Virus record (IMG/VR): IMGVR_UViG_2563366879_000001
Span: 1 to 34,760 of that record
Source: a virus
Lineage: Duplodnaviria; Heunggongvirae; Uroviricota; Caudoviricetes
Length of the DNA: 34,760 nucleotides
Reading direction: 5' to 3' (one strand)
The notes below the pieces were generated by a model that had not been told where the DNA came from, made no database searches, and saw only the letters and a program-made list of their open reading frames with translations. The position numbers were made by a program, and so were the translations under genes. Positions 12,584 to 17,664 of this stretch are shown piece by piece (the stretch's first letter is position 1; every line of letters starts with the position of its first letter).

Positions 12584-13269
12584 ATATCCAATATTTACAG
12601 TATGTCCGCGAGCAACTCATGGTGGCTACCGCTGATTTGAGCGGAGCAACGAAAGGCCAGCTTGAAGCCTGGCTGGAGCATGCACAATTTGATACTGGTA
12701 CATACAAACGAAAGAAGCCACGCATTCTGGATGTGGTAACTGGCAAGATGATTACGCTGGATAATCCGCCGATTTCCGGTAAACAGTCGTACGCAAAAGG
12801 TTCATCTGTCGCCCTGGTCAGTTCTGTCGAGTTTTCAACCTCTTCATGGCAGCGTGCGATTTTGTCTCTCGATGAACATCAGAAAGCGTGGTTGTTGTGG
12901 AGTTACAGTGAAAATATTCGCTGGGAGCATCAGGTTGCCATAACGCAGTGGGCATGGAGCGAGTTTAAGGCGCTGTTAGGTACAAGAAAAATTGCCAGTA
13001 AGACACTGGAACGCTTAAAGAAGTTGATTTGGTTGGCGGTACAGGATGTGAAGAACGAGCTGGCAGGGCGTGAGACCTATGAATACCAGGAGCTTGCATT
13101 ACTGGTGGGAGTGACATCAAAAAACTGGTCTGAGACATTTACTGAACGCTGGGTTGCAATGAAGCACATTTTTCTACAGCTTGATAGCCAAGCTTTATTG
13201 CTTGTAACGAGAACACGTTCAAAACAAAAGGCGACATTTTCACGGCAAAATATTGCAAAACTGGATTAA
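12580..13269 (+). CDS. Putative late-gene antiterminator Q (not lambda-Q-like and not QuuD-like)
   Basis: 229-aa ORF from the ATG at 12580 with AGGAG ribosome-binding site. Called from position only: directly after rusA/ylcG, followed by a ~310-bp leader with two terminator hairpins and then the lysis cassette. I do not recognise the sequence. Confidence 0.5.
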   Translation: MNIQYLQYVREQLMVATADLSGATKGQLEAWLEHAQFDTGTYKRKKPRILDVVTGKMITLDNPPISGKQSYAKGSSVALVSSVEFSTSSWQRAILSLDEHQKAWLLWSYSENIRWEHQVAITQWAWSEFKALLGTRKIASKTLERLKKLIWLAVQDVKNELAGRETYEYQELALLVGVTSKNWSETFTERWVAMKHIFLQLDSQALLLVTRTRSKQKATFSRQNIAKLD

Positions 13270-13336
13270 AAAGCATATATTTCATGTAAATCTGATATTT
13301 TGCCAATGTTGTACGCACTGGCAGTAATCCAAATTC

Positions 13337-13375
13337 AAGCCCGAGGTTTAAAGCCTTGGGCTTTTCTGTTTCTGG
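13337..13375 (+). terminator. Rho-independent terminator in the late leader (candidate tR-prime)
   Basis: Hairpin AAGCCCGAGG-TTTAAAG-CCTTGGGCTT (one G-U pair) followed by the U-rich tract TTCTGTTTCTGG. Confidence 0.55.
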
Positions 13376-13450
13376 ACGGTGAGTAGCCTTCCAACCTACC
13401 CCAGTCAGGGTGTCTTCAGCTGTTGAGTTGATATTGCTTAACCCTCTGTT

Positions 13451-13476
13451 GCCAGCTACATGCTGGCTTTTTTATT
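13451..13476 (+). terminator. Second rho-independent terminator-like hairpin in the late leader
   Basis: GCCAGC-TACAT-GCTGGC followed by TTTTTTATT. Confidence 0.5.
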
Positions 13477-13578
13477 CCAGGCTTGCGGGGAGCATCAACT
13501 CCGTGCTTTGTCGTTAAATTACCCCGAGAGCCTGATTTCTGACATTTAACGTCCCGGCCTTTTGTCGGCGACGAAACA

Positions 13579-13896
13579 TTGGCTATTCATATGCACGAAA
13601 AAGAGAGCCTTGCCGGAGCGTTCTGGCTCGTTTTGCTGATCATCGCAGGTTGGGGCGGTCTGGTCCGCTACCTGATAGATGTGAAGCAGAGTAAAGCAAC
13701 GTGGAGCTGGATAAATGCTCTGGCTCAGATAGTGGTATCGGGATTCACCGGTGTTATTGGTGGCCTGATCAGTATCGAAAGTGGATTCAGCATTTACATG
13801 ATTCTCGCGACGGCGGGGATTAGTGGTGCGATGGGTTCGGTTGCACTGACGTACTTCTGGGAACGACTGACAGGGGTGAAAAATGCAAAATCTTAA
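13579..13896 (+). CDS. Holin (three predicted transmembrane helices; two candidate starts, Met1 and Met5)
   Basis: 105-aa ORF with three hydrophobic segments, overlapping the start of the endolysin gene. Not lambda-S-like in sequence; called from position and topology. Confidence 0.7.
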   Translation: MAIHMHEKESLAGAFWLVLLIIAGWGGLVRYLIDVKQSKATWSWINALAQIVVSGFTGVIGGLISIESGFSIYMILATAGISGAMGSVALTYFWERLTGVKNAKS

Positions 13897-14359
13897 TCCT
13901 CAGCGTAAAGCTTTCCTCGATATGTTGGCGTGGTCAGAAGGAACGGATAACAGCAGACAGCTAACCCGCAATCACGGCTACGACGTTATTGTAGGTGGTG
14001 AGCTATTCACGGATTACTCCGATCATCCTCGCAAACTTGTCACGCTAAACCCGCAACTTAAATCAACCGCAGCTGGACGTTACCAGCTTCTTTCCCGTTG
14101 GTGGGATGCCTACCGCAAGCAGCTTGGCCTGAAAGACTTCTCTCCGAAAAGCCAGGACGCTGTGGCATTGCAGCAGATTAAGGAGCGTGGCGCTTTACCG
14201 ATGATTGATCGCGGTGATATCCGTCAGGCTATCAATCGTTGCAGCAATATCTGGGCGTCATTACCCGGTGCAGGTTACGGTCAGTATGAGCATAAAATCG
14301 GTGACCTGATTGCCCGATTTAAAGAGGCTGGTGGGGTGGTAAATGAAGCTGACTTATAA
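13883..14359 (+). CDS. R: Endolysin, lytic transglycosylase (lambda R)
   Basis: 158 aa, ..NPQRKAFLDMLAWSEGTDNSRQLTRNHGYDVIVGGELFTDYSDHPRKLVTLNP..., near-identical to lambda R as remembered. Confidence 0.95.
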   Translation: MQNLNPQRKAFLDMLAWSEGTDNSRQLTRNHGYDVIVGGELFTDYSDHPRKLVTLNPQLKSTAAGRYQLLSRWWDAYRKQLGLKDFSPKSQDAVALQQIKERGALPMIDRGDIRQAINRCSNIWASLPGAGYGQYEHKIGDLIARFKEAGGVVNEADL

Positions 14360-14870
14360 GCTGGTTATCGCTACATTCTTCTTCTCTGTCTTCGGTGGAC
14401 TCGTCTGGTCAGTAAACCATTACCACAGCAAATATCAGACAGAAAAGTTACGTGCGGATAAAGCCGAAGGTGAGGCTGAATATCAAGGGAAAGTGATAGC
14501 TAATCAGGCATTCAACTTCAATCGATTCAATCAGGTTGCAGAACATGCCAACAGGCTTAATTCCCTGATCGATACCAGCACCGAAGAAACCGTAATCGAA
14601 TATCGGGAGATTCTCCGCCGTGAAAAAAGCTGTGATCTGTCTGTTCCTGCTGATGTCGCTGGTGAGCTGCTCGACTACGCGAACCGTTTACGTACCGGGG
14701 CAATGCACACCGATTCCGGTAACGCTGACGCAGCCAGTGATAGCACCGCTTCCACCAGTTCGTTGACGTATTGCCAGGCTGTTCTCTGGATTAAGCCGCT
14801 GCTGGCCGCTATTGAAAAAGCGAATAACCAACTGGCTGGTATACGTCAAATCGAGCAGGACCGAAAATGA
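14343..14870 (+). CDS. Rz: Inner-membrane spanin (Rz-like)
   Basis: 175 aa with an N-terminal transmembrane helix and a coiled-coil periplasmic domain; overlaps the end of R; contains an embedded +1-frame lipoprotein gene. Confidence 0.85.
   Translation: MKLTYKLVIATFFFSVFGGLVWSVNHYHSKYQTEKLRADKAEGEAEYQGKVIANQAFNFNRFNQVAEHANRLNSLIDTSTEETVIEYREILRREKSCDLSVPADVAGELLDYANRLRTGAMHTDSGNADAASDSTASTSSLTYCQAVLWIKPLLAAIEKANNQLAGIRQIEQDRK
14620..14766 (+). CDS. Rz1: Outer-membrane lipoprotein spanin (Rz1-like), embedded in Rz in another frame
   Basis: 48-aa ORF from GTG not in the supplied track (VKKAVICLFLLMSLVSCSTTRTVYVPGQCTPIPVTLTQPVIAPLPPVR): lipobox LVSC and a proline-rich mature peptide. Confidence 0.7.
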   Translation: MKKAVICLFLLMSLVSCSTTRTVYVPGQCTPIPVTLTQPVIAPLPPVR

Positions 14871-15241
14871 GTCTTATCTCTTTGTGCGGTTAAATCACTA
14901 AATATCCACGCACCAGGATAAAACTATGAAGCAATAAGCGGATATACCGCAGCCGATAGGCAATGCAGCAGTAGTGATGTTGCTCCGAGTCGCGTAATGG
15001 CGAACCTGTGTAGTGATGGGTAAGGGTTCACAGATAACAATAAGCTCCGGTAGGGCAGCTCGATCGCCAAACGCGTGCCGGTTATCAGCGGCGATGATGC
15101 GACAGCACTTTAAGGTCATGAGCGTGGCTACTCTGGGAAGTGGCAAAGAGTTACAGAAGCCATTCTCTCGGAGGCTTCGATGATGTTCTATGGGGCAATA
15201 ACATATCTTGATGGTAAAATCCCCATTTTAAGGGGTAGGGT

Positions 15242-15604
15242 ATGTTCAATTGGATGGTTGTACACGAAGAGTCAGTAAAAATTTTTGCTTCAGCACTTTT
15301 AACAGTTGGCTCAATAGTACTGGCTATTAGAGTTAAGAATCTTATCAGCCTGATAGCTGATGTTCTAAATGCGCATGAGAAAGCCATCGGCGAAATAAAA
15401 GAGATTAGTGAAAACCCAAAGTGGGACAATTCAAGGCGCTTAAGTGCTGCTGTTGATGCGGGGCTTAAAAACGGCATGGTCGTGGCAATAGAAAGGTTTA
15501 ACTCCAGAAAAGGTGCCGCTCTGCTTGTCATTGGGTTCGGTTCACTGGCTTTAGGCGGCGGACTTAACTTTGCACTTGGGATATTGACAAAAATTTATAG
15601 CTAA
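15242..15604 (+). CDS. Hypothetical membrane protein (one hydrophobic helix near each terminus), gene 1 of the AT-rich accessory block
   Basis: 120-aa ORF with a purine-rich ribosome-binding site (AAGGGGTAGGG) before the ATG. Hydrophobic segments FASALLTVGSIVLAI and AALLVIGFGSLALGGGLNFALGIL. No recognisable homology. Confidence 0.5.
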   Translation: MFNWMVVHEESVKIFASALLTVGSIVLAIRVKNLISLIADVLNAHEKAIGEIKEISENPKWDNSRRLSAAVDAGLKNGMVVAIERFNSRKGAALLVIGFGSLALGGGLNFALGILTKIYS

Positions 15605-15721
15605 CAGATCCGTTACCGGGCGGTTTGAGCTATATTCGTTACAAAGCATTACAGCAGGCATTCACTGAGTGTCTGTAATAATGATAAAATGTAAGCCACT
15701 ACAGCTCATTATGAGGTAATA

Positions 15722-16147
15722 ATGACTCCAGAACAGATTTCATTCTGGTCAATGGTGGCTACATTTCTATCTGCTCTTGCTGCTGCCGTATCAGCTTTCT
15801 TTACGTTCAAGACGGTAAACTCGTGGAAAAAAGAGGCAAAACATGAAGGGCAAAGGGAGTTCAAAAAGGCTGTTTATCATTACTATGAGATGGCTCAAGT
15901 GCTTCCTGATTTTGCTTTCAGACAGGATAGACAAGAGAAAAAAGATGATTTTTTAGCTTTTAAAAAAGCTAAAAATGATTGTTCTTATGCATGGGCAATG
16001 ACAGAAGGCTCGATCAAAAATCCTCAGGTTATTCGATTATGGTCCGAGTTGGAAAAGGCTCATCATGAATACATGTTAATCAGGCAGCCTATAACGATGG
16101 TGCAGGATAAAGCAGCAGAAATAATCAATTCACACTTCCTAAATTGA
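15722..16147 (+). CDS. Hypothetical protein with N-terminal transmembrane anchor, gene 2 of the accessory block
   Basis: 141-aa ORF, ribosome-binding site GAGGTAA. N-terminal hydrophobic helix (FWSMVATFLSALAAAVSAFFTF) followed by a charged, Lys/Glu-rich soluble domain. No recognisable homology. Confidence 0.5.
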   Translation: MTPEQISFWSMVATFLSALAAAVSAFFTFKTVNSWKKEAKHEGQREFKKAVYHYYEMAQVLPDFAFRQDRQEKKDDFLAFKKAKNDCSYAWAMTEGSIKNPQVIRLWSELEKAHHEYMLIRQPITMVQDKAAEIINSHFLN

Positions 16148-16392
16148 TTCAGTAAATTATCACTGGAGCCTCGATGTTCGCTATTGTGGGGCATTTTTAA
16201 TTTGCAACACTCATAAGGAAGCTCAGTGTCACCGTGTGACAGCTAATCATGCACTTGTTAGAGCCAGCGGGGAGCAGAGACAAACGGGGGAGGGCGAGCT
16301 TAAGGGTATGGGCGAGGCACTGGGGAAGTTGGGCCAGTTTTTACAGCATTTTGGCCTTACGATATTAATAATCAAATAACTAAGAGGTCTTT

Positions 16393-16785
16393 ATGCCATT
16401 TAATGTTTATTTTTTACAGGGGATAGCTGCTGTTACAGCAATCGCAGCGAATACCAGAAGTTTTACACGCAAAAATGATCCAAATATTTCTCCTGCAATT
16501 GTTGCTCTTACTAGGGCTGTTCATGAGACTGAGATGTATTTTAGAGATAGAATGCGCGGGAAAGAGCGTGATTTTGAACGTGAGGATGCTCTGTCAAGAC
16601 TTTGGTCAGATGCCGAAGAGCCGGTAAGATTAATCGAGCCACGCCTTTCAGAACTTTGTCGTTATAAAGCAAGATATTGGCTTTTCCCTGAAACATATAG
16701 CCGTGCACAGGTAATAGAATTACACATAACTTTAGAGGGTATGAATGCTGCTCTTCAACGTCTCCGTGATATACCTGCAGAGTAG
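16393..16785 (+). CDS. Hypothetical protein, gene 3 of the accessory block
   Basis: 130-aa ORF, ribosome-binding site AAGAGG. Preceded by a ~245-bp non-coding spacer. No recognisable homology. Confidence 0.5.
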   Translation: MPFNVYFLQGIAAVTAIAANTRSFTRKNDPNISPAIVALTRAVHETEMYFRDRMRGKERDFEREDALSRLWSDAEEPVRLIEPRLSELCRYKARYWLFPETYSRAQVIELHITLEGMNAALQRLRDIPAE

Positions 16786-16924
16786 TGATTGAAAGGCATA
16801 CCTAGAGACTGGTTAAATTAAAGCTTTACTGATAAGCAGCTTACTAAAGAACTTACAGCAATTGCAGATAACCATATAGAGAAGGGCTATTATCATCTAG
16901 GGTCCTTTTCAGTCATCCGAACTG

Positions 16925-17120
16925 TTACGGGGCGGAAGGCGCGCGGGTTTTCGCTATTTATGAAAATTTTCCGGTTTAAGGCGTTTCCGTTCTTCTTCGT
17001 CATAACTTAATGTTTTTATTTAAAATACCCTCTGAAAAGAAAGGAAACGACAGGTGCTTAAAACCAGCTTTTTGGCCTCTGTCGTTTCCTTTCTCTGTTT
17101 TTGTCCGTGGAATGAACAAT
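16925..17120. other. cos region: variant cosN (12-nt cohesive-end equivalent GGGCGGAAGGCG at 16930..16941) plus a lambda-identical cosB ahead of Nu1
   Basis: From 16942 onward (CGCGGGTTTTCGCTATTTATGAAAATTTTCCGGTTTAAGGCGTTTCCGTTCTTCTTCGTCATAACTTAATG...) the sequence matches the lambda left end as remembered. The 12 nt before it differ from lambda GGGCGGCGACCT at 5 positions. Confidence 0.75.
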
Positions 17121-17638
17121 GGAAGTCAACAAAAAGCAGCTGGCTGACATTTTCGGCGCGAGTATCCGTACCATTCAGAACTGGCAGGAGCAGGGAATGC
17201 CCGTTCTGCGGGGTGGTGGCAAGGGTAATGAAGTGCTTTATGACTCTGCCGCCGCCATAAAATGGTATGCCGAAAGGGATGCTGAAATTGAGAACGAAAA
17301 GCTGCGCCGGGAAGTTGAAGAACTGCGGCAGGCCAGCGAGACAGATCTCCAGCCAGGGACTATTGAGTACGAACGCCATCGACTTACGCGTGCGCAGGCC
17401 GACGCACAGGAGCTGAAAAATGCCAGAGACTCCGCTGAAGTGGTGGAAACCGCATTCTGTACTTTCGTGCTGTCGCGGATCGCAGGTGAAATTGCCAGTA
17501 TTCTCGACGGGATCCCCCTGTCGGTGCAGCGGCGTTTTCCGGAACTGGAAAACCGACATGTTGATTTCCTGAAACGGGATATCATCAAAGCCATGAACAA
17601 AGCAGCCGCGCTGGATGAACTGATACCGGGGTTGCTGA

Positions 17639-17664
<26 letters not shown>
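17119..17664 (+). CDS. nu1: Terminase small subunit
   Basis: 181 aa, MEVNKKQLADIFGASIRTIQNWQEQGMPVLRGGGKGNEVLYDSAAAIKWYAERDAEIENEK..., near-identical to lambda Nu1. Confidence 0.97.

What the first reader, a model, noticed from the sequence alone, without database searches (positions are those of the whole stretch)
15150..16900. AT-rich three-gene accessory block between the lysis cassette and cos: candidate undescribed superinfection-exclusion or defence module
Between Rz/Rz1 and cos a lambda-type genome carries the small accessory region that includes bor. Here that slot holds about 1.7 kb of visibly AT-richer DNA with three same-strand ORFs (15242..15604, 15722..16147, 16393..16785), each with its own ribosome-binding site. 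None resembles any protein family I can recognise. Two carry predicted membrane helices and the third is soluble. Small membrane-anchored proteins in prophage accessory slots are the usual form of superinfection-exclusion and abortive-infection factors, so this block is the best candidate in the window for a new system. The functional assignment is inference from position, composition and topology only.
Basis: inference. Interest (0 to 1): 0.8.

Follow-up and report, generated by a model that had tools for sequence, protein, structure and literature searches.

The report
Three independent prophage cargo genes
The three small genes are real, but they are separate, individually mobile accessory genes of unknown function rather than one defence system, and they sit behind a conserved folded RNA, absent from the RNA-family library, that marks this cargo slot in many viruses of gut bacteria.

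Summary
ORFs 15242-15604, 15722-16147 and 16393-16785 are real genes under purifying selection (dN/dS 0.11-0.32). They lie in a 41% GC block that replaces the bor region of the closest phage. None matches Pfam, NCBIfam, PADLOC or a solved structure.

The reading as one three-gene module does not hold. Outside this phage's own lineage, 29 related loci carry exactly one of the three genes and none carries two. Each is a single-gene cassette found between lysis and terminase genes of unrelated Enterobacterales prophages, next to other cargo (Acb2, DUF2560, DUF2441). ORF1 (two membrane helices) and ORF2 (one) each carry a conserved TGnTAAAAT promoter-like motif. Function is unknown; exclusion or defence is only one option.

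More interesting is what precedes them: a conserved non-coding element of about 210 nt (14926-15144, plus a hairpin to 15178) that is absent from Rfam. It has 11 helices including a pseudoknot (95% canonical pairs, 20 covarying pairs in 55 sequences). It is nearly always preceded by a 1-3-codon mini-ORF or a gene's stop codon. It occurs after lysis genes, after Q, and between nutL and N. A decayed half-copy lies between ORF2 and ORF3, which suggests cassettes are shuffled by recombination at this element.

The parts
14915..14937 (+). Shine-Dalgarno AGGA (14915-14918) plus mini-ORF ATG AAG CAA TAA (14926-14937), ending at the first base pair of the RNA element
   Evidence: Sequence read. Of 95 unique copies of the element, 72 have an SD plus ATG plus 1-3 sense codons plus stop at this position, and 13 have the stop codon of the upstream o-spanin gene there.
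14938..15144 (+). Core of a conserved structured non-coding element: P1 GCGG/CCGC at 14938-14950, the GAGUCGC motif at 14987-14993, the last helix ending at 15144
   Evidence: About 80% identical and unannotated in 119 of 5426 E. coli genomes. Found in at least 119 viral contigs and in 13 Enterobacterales species. No conserved ORF and no 3-base periodicity. 45 pairs in 11 helices: 95.3% canonical, 20 pairs with compensatory changes, 0 of 500 shuffles as good, slid controls 26-36% paired. No Rfam match. nhmmer E=5e-77 for 14894-15181.
15156..15178 (+). Tail hairpin GAAGCC...GGCUUC that closes the element; its counterpart after Q genes is an intrinsic terminator
   Evidence: The 3' half (GGCTTC/GATAATG) is the shared 5' boundary of ORF1 cassettes in loci that lack the full element.
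15212..15220 (+). TGGTAAAAT, an extended -10 promoter-like motif 22 nt before the ORF1 start codon
   Evidence: TGNTAAAAT occurs only twice in the 34.8-kb window, and both copies are in front of cargo genes. TG(A/G)TAAAAT is present in 10 of 10 ORF1 homolog leaders. Promoter function is inferred, not shown.
15221..15235 (+). Hairpin CCCC(15221-15224)/GGGG(15232-15235) that pairs the ORF1 ribosome-binding site
   Evidence: Local folds of the window and nine homolog leaders; the stem is kept with different sequences, for example CCCTC/GAGGG and CCTCCCC/GGAGGGG. Inference.
15242..15604 (+). ORF1, 120 aa, two predicted membrane helices (about 14-31 and 92-118) with a glycine-rich C-terminal helix; no family
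   Evidence: Its 12 homologous clusters are 72-99% identical and sit alone between lysis and terminase genes in Klebsiella, Enterobacter and Pectobacterium prophages. dN/dS 0.11-0.17.
15643..15691 (+). Tail-like module (GCATTACAG...CTGTAATAATG) containing TGATAAAAT at 15682-15690, 32 nt before the ORF2 start
   Evidence: Recurs upstream of all ORF2 homologs, and again between other cargo genes at L012 6524-6568 and L024 4070-4110. Promoter-like TTCACT-18-TAAAAT with TG.
15722..16147 (+). ORF2, 141 aa, N-terminal membrane helix plus a helical bundle placed in the cytoplasm by the positive-inside rule; phrog_6169
16238..16351 (+). Degenerate copy of the 3' half of the RNA element, between ORF2 and ORF3
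   Evidence: nhmmer model positions 177-277, E=0.0065. Window 16302 onward aligns with the 3' end of the full element that precedes the ORF3 homolog in L014. Full or near-full elements precede the ORF3 homologs in L014 and L016.
16393..16785 (+). ORF3, 130 aa, weakly hydrophobic N-terminus plus a confident four-helix bundle (residues 30-125, pLDDT about 90); phrog_12412
16889..17118 (.). Right boundary of the variable slot: lambda-type cos region and the Nu1 leader
   Evidence: Similarity to lambda, DE3 and other lambdoid phages (91-94% identity) resumes at window 16889 and to PhiR47_2 at 16900. Nu1 starts at 17119.

Best explanation
The block is not one system. It is an array of three independently acquired single-gene cargo cassettes (morons) stacked in the lysis-to-cos hot spot of a lambda-like prophage.

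Each cassette brings its own leader. ORF1 and ORF2 have a conserved extended -10-like TGnTAAAAT motif, so they are probably transcribed on their own as well as by read-through from the late operon (inferred). The cassettes are joined at copies or remnants of a conserved structured RNA element: a full copy before ORF1, its tail module before ORF2, and a decayed 3' half before ORF3. The array was therefore most likely assembled by homologous recombination at that element between different phages (inferred from the anatomy).

The products are small, helical proteins. By the positive-inside rule their soluble parts face the cytoplasm, and ORF1 and ORF2 are tethered to the inner membrane. Each most likely acts alone on a membrane-associated host or phage process.

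My split for function is: superinfection exclusion or abortive infection about 0.3, counter-defence or other lytic-cycle help about 0.3, lysis-timing or envelope modulation about 0.2, other lysogenic conversion about 0.2. The confidence given below is for the architecture (independent cassettes, not a three-gene system), not for any one function.
For: No co-occurrence: tblastn of the three proteins against 156 fetched loci gives 14 loci with ORF1 only, 9 with ORF2 only and 6 with ORF3 only. All three appear together only in the window's own lineage, at 100% identity (contexts).

Each gene recurs in the same slot of phages with unrelated lysis cassettes and terminases (Terminase_2, Terminase_4, Nu1/GpA), next to different cargo: Acb2/Tad1, DUF2560, DUF2441, ParB_N/TAGT.

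A defective E. coli prophage (EcPF15) keeps intact ORF2 and ORF3 after a deletion that removed the N-terminal part of ORF1.

Purifying selection acts on each gene.

Boundary anatomy: full element at 14894-15181, partial copy at 16238-16351, tail module at 15643-15691 shared with other loci. Elements directly precede ORF1, ORF2-family and ORF3 homologs in other phages.

The TGnTAAAAT motif occurs only at 15212 and 15682 in the window and is conserved in 14 of 14 homolog leaders.

No hit to defence models or known families.
Against: Within its own lineage the trio is stably inherited. The exact ORF1 protein is indexed in 260 blocks of the assembly collection, and every contig read shows ORF1-ORF2-ORF3. 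A recently evolved cooperation among the three cannot be excluded.

The homolog samples are small: 12, 5 and 10 clusters.

No + strand intrinsic terminator separates the genes, and the consensus promoter scan is not above chance (4 found, 4.9 expected), so autonomous transcription is unproven.

The partial element copy is statistically marginal on its own (E=0.0065).

There are no expression or phenotype data.
Confidence: 0.72

Rival explanations
1. One reading: the three genes form one operon-like superinfection-exclusion or defence system expressed from the prophage, with the two membrane proteins and the third protein working together.
For: The genes are on the same strand and tightly spaced. 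Two have membrane anchors. The slot is a known home of lysogenic-conversion genes (bor in PhiR47_2). The trio is stably inherited in its own lineage. ORF2 has a marginal PADLOC hit to the DRT-associated membrane protein model PDLC03821 (E=0.0017).
Against: No locus outside the lineage has two of the three genes; 29 have exactly one. EcPF15 keeps intact ORF2 and ORF3 with ORF1 truncated. Only 1 of the 30 aligned ORF2-family sequences, ORF2 itself, matches the PADLOC model, and no reverse transcriptase is nearby. There are no other defence-model hits. The intergenic regions carry separate leader modules and an element remnant, as expected for independent cassettes.
Confidence: 0.07
2. The genes are late-operon passengers expressed only during lytic growth by Q-antiterminated read-through from pR'. 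They serve the phage itself (counter-defence, lysis timing or envelope conditioning), not the lysogen.
For: They are co-oriented with the late operon, with no + strand terminator between Rz and Nu1. They lie immediately downstream of the lysis genes in every lineage. The same slot carries Acb2/Tad1-family counter-defence genes in 25 element-bearing loci. The ORF1 ribosome-binding site is sequestered in a hairpin, as is common for tightly controlled membrane proteins.
Against: A conserved TGnTAAAAT motif sits at promoter distance from ORF1 and ORF2 in all 14 homolog leaders, which suggests independent and possibly lysogenic transcription. ORF3-like genes also occur in early-region slots: the ren-nin slot in phage Turner and near xis/int in L017.
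Confidence: 0.3
3. The ORFs are chance or decaying reading frames in AT-rich filler DNA, with no function.
For: No annotated family, small size, rare in databases.
Against: dN/dS is 0.11-0.32 over synonymous divergence of 0.46 to more than 1. Full-length conservation across genera. ORF3 has a confident predicted fold. ORF2 belongs to a wider family of uniform architecture.
Confidence: 0.03

Closest known systems
Lambdoid 'morons' such as lambda bor and lom (accessory genes inserted between conserved modules; concept of Hendrix, Juhala and colleagues, from my own knowledge)
   Same: They are inserted in the same Rz-to-cos slot that holds bor in PhiR47_2 and lambda. They are absent from the closest relatives, have deviant base composition, are single genes with their own leader and promoter-like motif, and are each found in otherwise unrelated phages.
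   Different: bor is on the opposite strand with its own promoter and is a characterised outer-membrane lipoprotein. These genes are co-oriented with the late operon, lack recognisable terminators, have no known function, and are bounded by a conserved RNA element.
Small membrane-anchored superinfection-exclusion proteins (HK97 gp15, P22 SieA/SieB, T4 Imm and Sp; from my own knowledge)
   Same: Small size, one or two membrane helices, encoded as prophage accessory genes, act singly.
   Different: No sequence or profile similarity was found (Pfam, PHROGs, PADLOC). Expression in the lysogen and any exclusion phenotype are untested.
PADLOC PDLC03821 (Drt1b / RT-associated membrane protein of DRT systems)
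   Same: ORF2 gives a marginal match (E=0.0017) over its membrane helix and the following 45 residues, and the two are of similar length.
   Different: Only 1 of the 30 aligned ORF2-family sequences, ORF2 itself, matches. No reverse transcriptase gene is adjacent in any locus. The match is best explained by the shared hydrophobic helix.
HK022 put RNAs and the lambda N-leader and pR' 6S leader (cis-acting leader RNAs of lambdoid operons; PMC9378689 for put)
   Same: These compare with the RNA element upstream of the block. Like them it is co-oriented with transcription and placed just downstream of pL/nutL or of pR'/Q in many phages.
   Different: put is about 70 nt with two stem-loops and replaces N/nut. 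This element is about 210 nt with 11 helices and a pseudoknot. It coexists with nutL, N and Q, also occurs mid-operon after the lysis genes, and is preceded by a mini-ORF. No sequence similarity to HK022 was detected.
Prophage-encoded Hfq-binding sRNAs near Q and holin (PasA-D, STnc100, StxS; bioRxiv 10.64898/2026.05.13.724894)
   Same: Non-coding RNAs located in the Q-to-lysis region of lambdoid prophages of E. coli.
   Different: PasA, the only one whose size that paper gives, is an 84-nt mature sRNA, and all Pas sRNAs have a terminator hairpin and a U-tract. STnc100 (RF02076), listed in that paper as an Rfam family, did not match the element in Rfam scans of the window and nine other loci.

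Membership tests
Multi-gene anti-phage defence system | Component genes co-occur as a unit across unrelated genomes or mobile elements | tested here: not met
   29 loci have exactly one of the three genes. Only the window's own lineage (100% identical copies, and EcPF15) has more than one.
Multi-gene anti-phage defence system | At least one component matches a known defence protein model or domain | tested here: not met
   PADLOC: no hit for ORF1 or ORF3. ORF2 hits PDLC03821 at E=0.0017 only, and no other aligned ORF2-family sequence does. Pfam and NCBIfam: nothing.
Multi-gene anti-phage defence system | Confers resistance to phage infection when expressed | not testable with these tools
   Needs cloning and a phage challenge.
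Moron (autonomous accessory gene in a prophage) | Present or absent polymorphism at a fixed position between otherwise collinear, closely related phages | tested here: met
   PhiR47_2 is 95-96% identical on both sides but unrelated between 14334 and 16900. Each gene recurs in the same slot of unrelated phages.
Moron (autonomous accessory gene in a prophage) | Base composition differs from the flanking phage genes | tested here: met
   GC 0.411 against 0.498 (lysis) and 0.573 (structural).
Moron (autonomous accessory gene in a prophage) | Own promoter | tested here: inconclusive
   A conserved TGnTAAAAT motif lies 22 and 32 nt upstream of ORF1 and ORF2 and is present in 14 of 14 homolog leaders. 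The generic promoter scan is not above chance and there is no transcript evidence. No clear motif for ORF3.
Moron (autonomous accessory gene in a prophage) | Own terminator | tested here: not met
   No + strand intrinsic-terminator-like site in 14300-17200.
Superinfection-exclusion membrane proteins | Small protein with a membrane anchor | tested here: met
   ORF1 has two hydrophobic segments and ORF2 has one. ORF3 is only weakly hydrophobic at its N-terminus.
Superinfection-exclusion membrane proteins | Homology to a characterised exclusion protein | tested here: not met
   No match in Pfam, PHROGs with annotated function, PADLOC, or PDB sequence and fold searches.
Superinfection-exclusion membrane proteins | Expressed from the repressed prophage and blocks incoming phage | not testable with these tools
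   Needs lysogen RNA-seq and plating assays.
PHROG families 6169 and 12412 (unknown function) | Significant full-length profile match | tested here: met
   ORF2 to phrog_6169 at E=4.2e-47 over 2-141. ORF3 to phrog_12412 at E=1.5e-59 over 11-127. ORF1 matches none.
Any Rfam 15 RNA family (for the upstream element) | Covariance-model match at or near the gathering score | tested here: not met
   No match overlapping the element at E<=1 in the window or at E<=0.1 in nine other loci.
put-type antitermination RNA | About 70 nt, two stem-loops, directly downstream of pL or pR, in a phage lacking N | tested here: not met
   The element is about 210 nt with 11 helices. It follows nutL boxA/boxB and precedes an N gene. 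Activity on RNA polymerase is not testable here.

The most novel reading that the evidence does not exclude
The element of about 210 nt at 14926-15178 is a previously undescribed class of structured RNA in temperate phages of Enterobacterales. On this reading it is a cis-acting leader that couples a parked or terminating ribosome (the mini-ORF) to a pseudoknotted fold. It gates expression of whatever lies downstream: N in the early-left operon, the lysis genes after Q, or cargo and packaging genes after lysis. It does so through different downstream platforms: an intrinsic terminator after Q, ribosome-binding-site hairpins before cargo. Its conserved sequence also serves as the recombination site that shuffles single-gene cargo cassettes such as ORF1, ORF2 and ORF3 between phages. 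A trans-acting or processing role (stable RNA, ribozyme, decoy) is equally open.
Probability: 0.4. Interest if true: 0.8.

Novelty: new member of a known kind. Interest (0 to 1): 0.5.

Why it matters
For the finding as written, the result stops a false lead. Treating 15150-16900 as one 'system' would put three unrelated genes into one construct and would cut the upstream RNA element in two. The right experiments are single-gene ones.

The three proteins remain genuine unknowns. ORF1 is unusually well conserved: 72-82% identity across Escherichia, Klebsiella, Enterobacter and Pectobacterium prophages that share little else. They sit in a slot that also carries Acb2/Tad1 counter-defence genes, so each is a reasonable single-gene candidate for phage-host conflict functions.

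The larger payoff is the RNA element. A complex, covariation-supported fold sits at the heads of the N, lysis and packaging or cargo modules of many prophages, it is missing from Rfam, and it has a conserved mini-ORF. That makes it a testable new piece of lambdoid gene regulation, and a plausible mechanistic explanation for how cargo genes are exchanged at this hot spot.

Tried and rejected
Family and structure searches that gave nothing usable:
- Pfam, NCBIfam and PADLOC scans of the three proteins gave no significant family.
- PDB sequence search gave only noise, E>=0.046.
- ORF2 against ORF3 by BLASTP showed no similarity, so they are not paralogs.
- tblastn against 50,697 phage records found nothing for ORF1 or ORF2, and only 28-37% relatives for ORF3.
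- Peptide-pattern scans of IMG/VR found five ORF1 loci and none for ORF2 or ORF3.

The Drt1b/RTasTM lead for ORF2 was rejected after scanning the 30 aligned ORF2-family sequences.

Checks on the RNA element:
- A missed protein-coding gene was rejected: stop codons in all frames in most copies and no codon periodicity.
- A duplicated pR' region was rejected: no second copy near Q in the window.
- tRNA or tmRNA-like was rejected: ARAGORN finds none.
- Known Rfam families were rejected.
- Pas or STnc100 sRNAs were rejected: PasA, the one whose size is given, is far smaller (84 nt), all Pas sRNAs end in a terminator hairpin with a U-tract, and no RF02076 hit was found.
- The single-sequence fold of the window copy is not exceptional (z = -1.5). 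The support comes from covariation, not from thermodynamics.
- A literature search for element sequence strings found nothing.
- RNAalifold alone gave an incomplete structure. The structure tested was refined by hand from the same alignment, which inflates the percentage of paired cells somewhat.
Full report
**Setting.** The window is a lambda-like (pro)phage. Over window 10000-34760 the best match is Escherichia phage PhiR47_2 (89% covered, 95.7% identity), with the usual order nin-Q-S-R-Rz-(variable)-cos-Nu1-A-head-tail. In the window the holin is at 13579-13896, the lysozyme at 13883-14359, and Rz at 14343-14870 with Rz1 embedded. Nu1 starts at 17119 and the large terminase at 17639. Homology to PhiR47_2 stops at 14334 and resumes at 16900. 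That phage has a different Rz allele, then bor and several small ORFs, in the interval. Similarity to lambda cos/Nu1 resumes at 16889.

**The observation.**
- The block 15150-16900 has 41.1% GC, against 49.8% for the lysis genes and 57.3% for the structural genes.
- All three are genuine genes. Each has full-length homologs at 52-99% identity. Pairwise dN/dS is 0.11-0.17 for ORF1 and 0.11-0.32 for ORF2; synonymous sites are saturated for ORF3.
- Hydropathy gives two membrane segments for ORF1 and one for ORF2. ORF3 has only a weakly hydrophobic N-terminus.
- The distribution of flanking charges puts the soluble parts of ORF1 and ORF2 in the cytoplasm. This is an inference from the positive-inside rule.
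- Pfam, NCBIfam and PADLOC give no significant family. PHROGs places ORF2 in phrog_6169 and ORF3 in phrog_12412, both of unknown function.
- There are no relatives among solved structures by sequence.
- The ORF3 model is confident for residues 30-125 and the ORF2 model is moderate. Both are up-and-down helical bundles whose fold matches are generic: designed proteins, HPt/CheA-P1, talin rods, four-helix sensor domains.

**Are the three genes a unit?** No.
- I fetched the genomic context of homologs of each protein and ran all three proteins against every fetched locus. Fourteen loci carry only ORF1, nine only ORF2 and six only ORF3.
- The only loci with more than one are 100%-identical copies of this same phage (L152-L154) and the defective EcPF15 prophage. 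EcPF15 is a deletion derivative that joins window 11292 to 15460, which leaves intact ORF2 and ORF3 but truncates ORF1.
- The exact ORF1 protein is indexed in 260 blocks of the assembly collection. Every contig read has the same backbone, so the trio's frequency reflects one successful phage lineage and not repeated co-selection.
- In other lineages each gene sits alone between the lysis cassette and the small terminase. Those phages have unrelated holins, endolysins and spanins, and different terminase types. The neighbouring cargo also differs: Acb2/Tad1-family, DUF2560, DUF2441, ParB_N plus TAGT, HNH.
- ORF3 relatives also occur near xis/int (L017, 58% identity) and in the ren-nin slot of phage Turner (37% identity).
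- ORF2 belongs to a thin but wider family. Thirty representatives were found among 1.84 billion proteins, all 138-182 aa, sharing a membrane helix followed by W-x2-QE-x2-K-x-K-x2-FK and later MP and C-x2-AW motifs. None of these relatives matches a Pfam or PADLOC family consistently, which removes the marginal Drt1b/RTasTM hit as a lead.

**What joins the cassettes.** A search with the 390 nt between Rz and ORF1 showed that about 300 nt (14888-15188) are roughly 80% identical to unannotated DNA in 119 of 5426 complete E. coli genomes.
- The same sequence precedes an ORF1 homolog in L003/L019/L020, an ORF2 homolog in L008, an ORF3 homolog in L014 and L016, and a DUF2560 gene in L024/L029.
It also found 14 sites in 13 species in the one-genome-per-species collection: Kluyvera, Citrobacter, Pseudocitrobacter, Escherichia, Silvania, Hafnia, Ewingella and others.
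- It is not coding. Most copies have stops in all six frames, and variable columns show no 3-base periodicity (49/45/42).
- It matches no Rfam family in the window or in nine other loci, and ARAGORN finds nothing.

**Structure of the element.** I aligned 55 copies that are less than 90% identical to each other. I then tested a hand-refined structure of 45 pairs in 11 helices, including a pseudoknot between CCCY and the loop of the UCGC/GCGA hairpin on one side and UCAAGG on the other.
- 95.3% of cells are canonical pairs.
- 20 pairs show changes on both sides, against a shuffled mean of 7.4; 0 of 500 shuffles reach this.
- The covariation score is 0.184, against 0.017-0.043 when partners are slid by 1-3 columns. 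Paired cells fall to 26-36% in those controls.
- Clear examples: C/U at column 82 with G/A at column 121 (32 C-G, 22 U-A, 1 U-G, none unpaired); the CUCA/UGAG hairpin, which becomes UCCA/UGGG, CCCA/UGGG or CUUA/UAAG; and the terminal CCAC/GUGG stem, which becomes UCAC/GUGA or CUAU/GUAG.
- Many G-U pairs would be A-C mismatches on the other strand, so the + strand, which is the sense of the operon, is the folded one.
- Caveats: the structure was derived from the same alignment, some variable sub-domains swap as blocks, and the single-sequence folding energy is unremarkable (z = -1.5).

**A conserved feature at the 5' edge.** Of 95 unique copies, 72 have a Shine-Dalgarno sequence, an ATG, one to three sense codons and a stop that ends at the first helix. 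The window has AGGA-7 nt-ATG AAG CAA TAA at 14915-14937. The peptide sequence itself is not conserved (MKQ, MVH, MHQ, M-stop and others). Thirteen more copies have the stop codon of the upstream o-spanin gene at the same place.

**Where the element occurs.** It occupies three kinds of position, always co-oriented with transcription.
- (a) After the spanin genes and before cargo or terminase genes. An o-spanin lies upstream in 46 loci, and an Acb2/Tad1-family gene lies upstream in 25.
- (b) Right after a Q gene, in 28 loci. There it lies between two intrinsic terminators downstream of the presumed pR'.
- (c) In the early-left operon. There it follows a canonical nutL (boxA GCTCTTTAACA plus a boxB hairpin) and precedes an N-family gene, in 17 loci.
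- Downstream of the core is a hairpin. It is a bona fide terminator in class (b) and lacks the U-tract elsewhere (window 15156-15178).

**Anatomy of the block in this light.**
- A profile of the element finds the full copy at 14894-15181 (E=5e-77) and a degenerate copy of its 3' half at 16238-16351, between ORF2 and ORF3 (E=0.0065). The second hit is supported by direct homology to the junction between the element and the ORF3 homolog in L014 and by the presence of the element before the ORF3 homolog in L016.
- The 45-nt stretch 15643-15691 before ORF2 is a copy of the tail module. It recurs before all ORF2 homologs and between other cargo genes elsewhere.
- ORF1 cassettes in loci without the full element still begin with the 3' half of the tail hairpin (GGCTTGATAATG).
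- The simplest account is that single-gene cassettes are exchanged by homologous recombination at the element or its tail. On that account this phage has accumulated three. This is an inference from anatomy.

**Expression signals.**
- The motif TGNTAAAAT occurs only twice in the 34.8-kb window, 22 nt before the ORF1 start and 32 nt before the ORF2 start. TG(A/G)TAAAAT is present in 10 of 10 ORF1 and 4 of 4 ORF2 homolog leaders. It looks like an extended -10 promoter.
- Transcripts starting there would lack the 5' arm of a conserved hairpin (CCCC 15221-15224 with GGGG 15232-15235) that otherwise pairs the ORF1 ribosome-binding site. If so, ORF1 could be translated from its own transcript but masked in late read-through RNA. 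This is speculative.
- Against autonomy, the generic promoter scan is at chance level and no + strand terminator exists in the block.
- Whether the genes are lysogen-expressed, which an exclusion or defence role would need, or late-expressed, is therefore open.

**Verdict.**
- 'Accessory cargo of unknown function, two of three membrane-anchored' is supported.
- Defence or exclusion remains one possibility among several, and I put it at about 0.3.
- The block itself is a new member of a known kind: uncharacterised morons in a known hot spot.
- The adjacent structured RNA, which partly overlaps the finding's left edge and whose remnants lie inside the block, is the more novel object. It should be followed up in its own right.

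Noticed in passing
window 14915-15178 (+): A conserved structured non-coding element of about 210 nt, preceded by a 3-codon mini-ORF and closed by a hairpin. It is absent from Rfam and present in 119 of 5426 E. coli genomes, at least 119 IMG/VR contigs and 13 Enterobacterales species. It has 11 helices including a pseudoknot, with strong covariation. It occurs after lysis genes, after Q (between two terminators), and between nutL and N.
   Followed up: yes
window 16238-16351 (+): A GC-rich patch in the ORF2-ORF3 spacer is a decayed copy of the 3' half of the same element (nhmmer E=0.0065). It is homologous to the junction between the element and the ORF3 homolog in L014 and L016, which points to cassette assembly by recombination at the element.
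   Followed up: partly
window 15212-15220 and 15682-15690 (+): The only two TGNTAAAAT sites in the window lie 22 and 32 nt upstream of ORF1 and ORF2, and the motif is conserved in all 14 homolog leaders examined. It looks like an extended -10 promoter. The ORF1 ribosome-binding site is paired in a conserved hairpin (15221-15235) just downstream of the motif.
   Followed up: partly
window 5743-9651 (+) and 9688-10731 (-): A large cargo insertion lies between replication gene P and the nin region: a 1302-aa ORF and an antiparallel 347-aa ORF in AT-rich DNA (GC down to 0.34). Their counterparts in the EcPF15 prophage, about 95% identical at the DNA level, are annotated as an inverse-autotransporter beta-domain protein and an alpha/beta hydrolase. 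PhiR47_2 matches the hydrolase ORF but was not compared upstream of window 10000. This is probably a lysogenic-conversion adhesin.
   Followed up: no
window 14334-14870: Homology to PhiR47_2 breaks at the R/Rz junction, so the Rz/Rz1 spanin allele was exchanged together with the cargo block. The mosaic boundary is at 14334, not at the end of Rz.
   Followed up: partly
L001 (E. coli EcPF15, NZ_CP054227.1, 1181789-1195228): The only complete E. coli genome of 5426 with this block is a defective derivative of the same phage. A deletion joins window 11292 to 15460, removing nin, Q, the lysis genes, the RNA element and the N-terminal part of ORF1. Further deletions lie in the head and tail genes.
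   Followed up: yes
L003 5353-5634, L010 5407-5691, and 25 element-bearing loci (cluster 3): Acb2/Tad1-hairpin family genes (anti-CBASS/anti-Thoeris sponge family, PF24729) lie in the same lysis-to-terminase slot. In the 25 element-bearing loci they are immediately upstream of the RNA element; L010 has no detectable element. The slot therefore carries counter-defence cargo.
   Followed up: partly
L126 about 9440-9500, L008 about 5660-5700, and window 14893-14918: Short hairpin modules of the form TATCCCC-(4-6 nt, often GNRA)-GGGGATA recur around the element and between cargo genes in several loci. Their meaning is unknown; they could be processing sites or recombination linkers.
   Followed up: no
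L025-L027, L113, L127 (pL class), about 30-250 nt downstream of the element: Between the element and the N start codon there is a long-range helix (GCTTTGGGGTGTGGTG ... CACCACACCACCAAAGC) that encloses a variable insert. It resembles the RNase III-sensitive N-leader structure of lambda.
   Followed up: no
window 17033-17099: Weak, sub-threshold Rfam hits to eukaryotic microRNA precursor models on both strands. They are caused by the inverted repeat between cos and Nu1 and are spurious.
   Followed up: no
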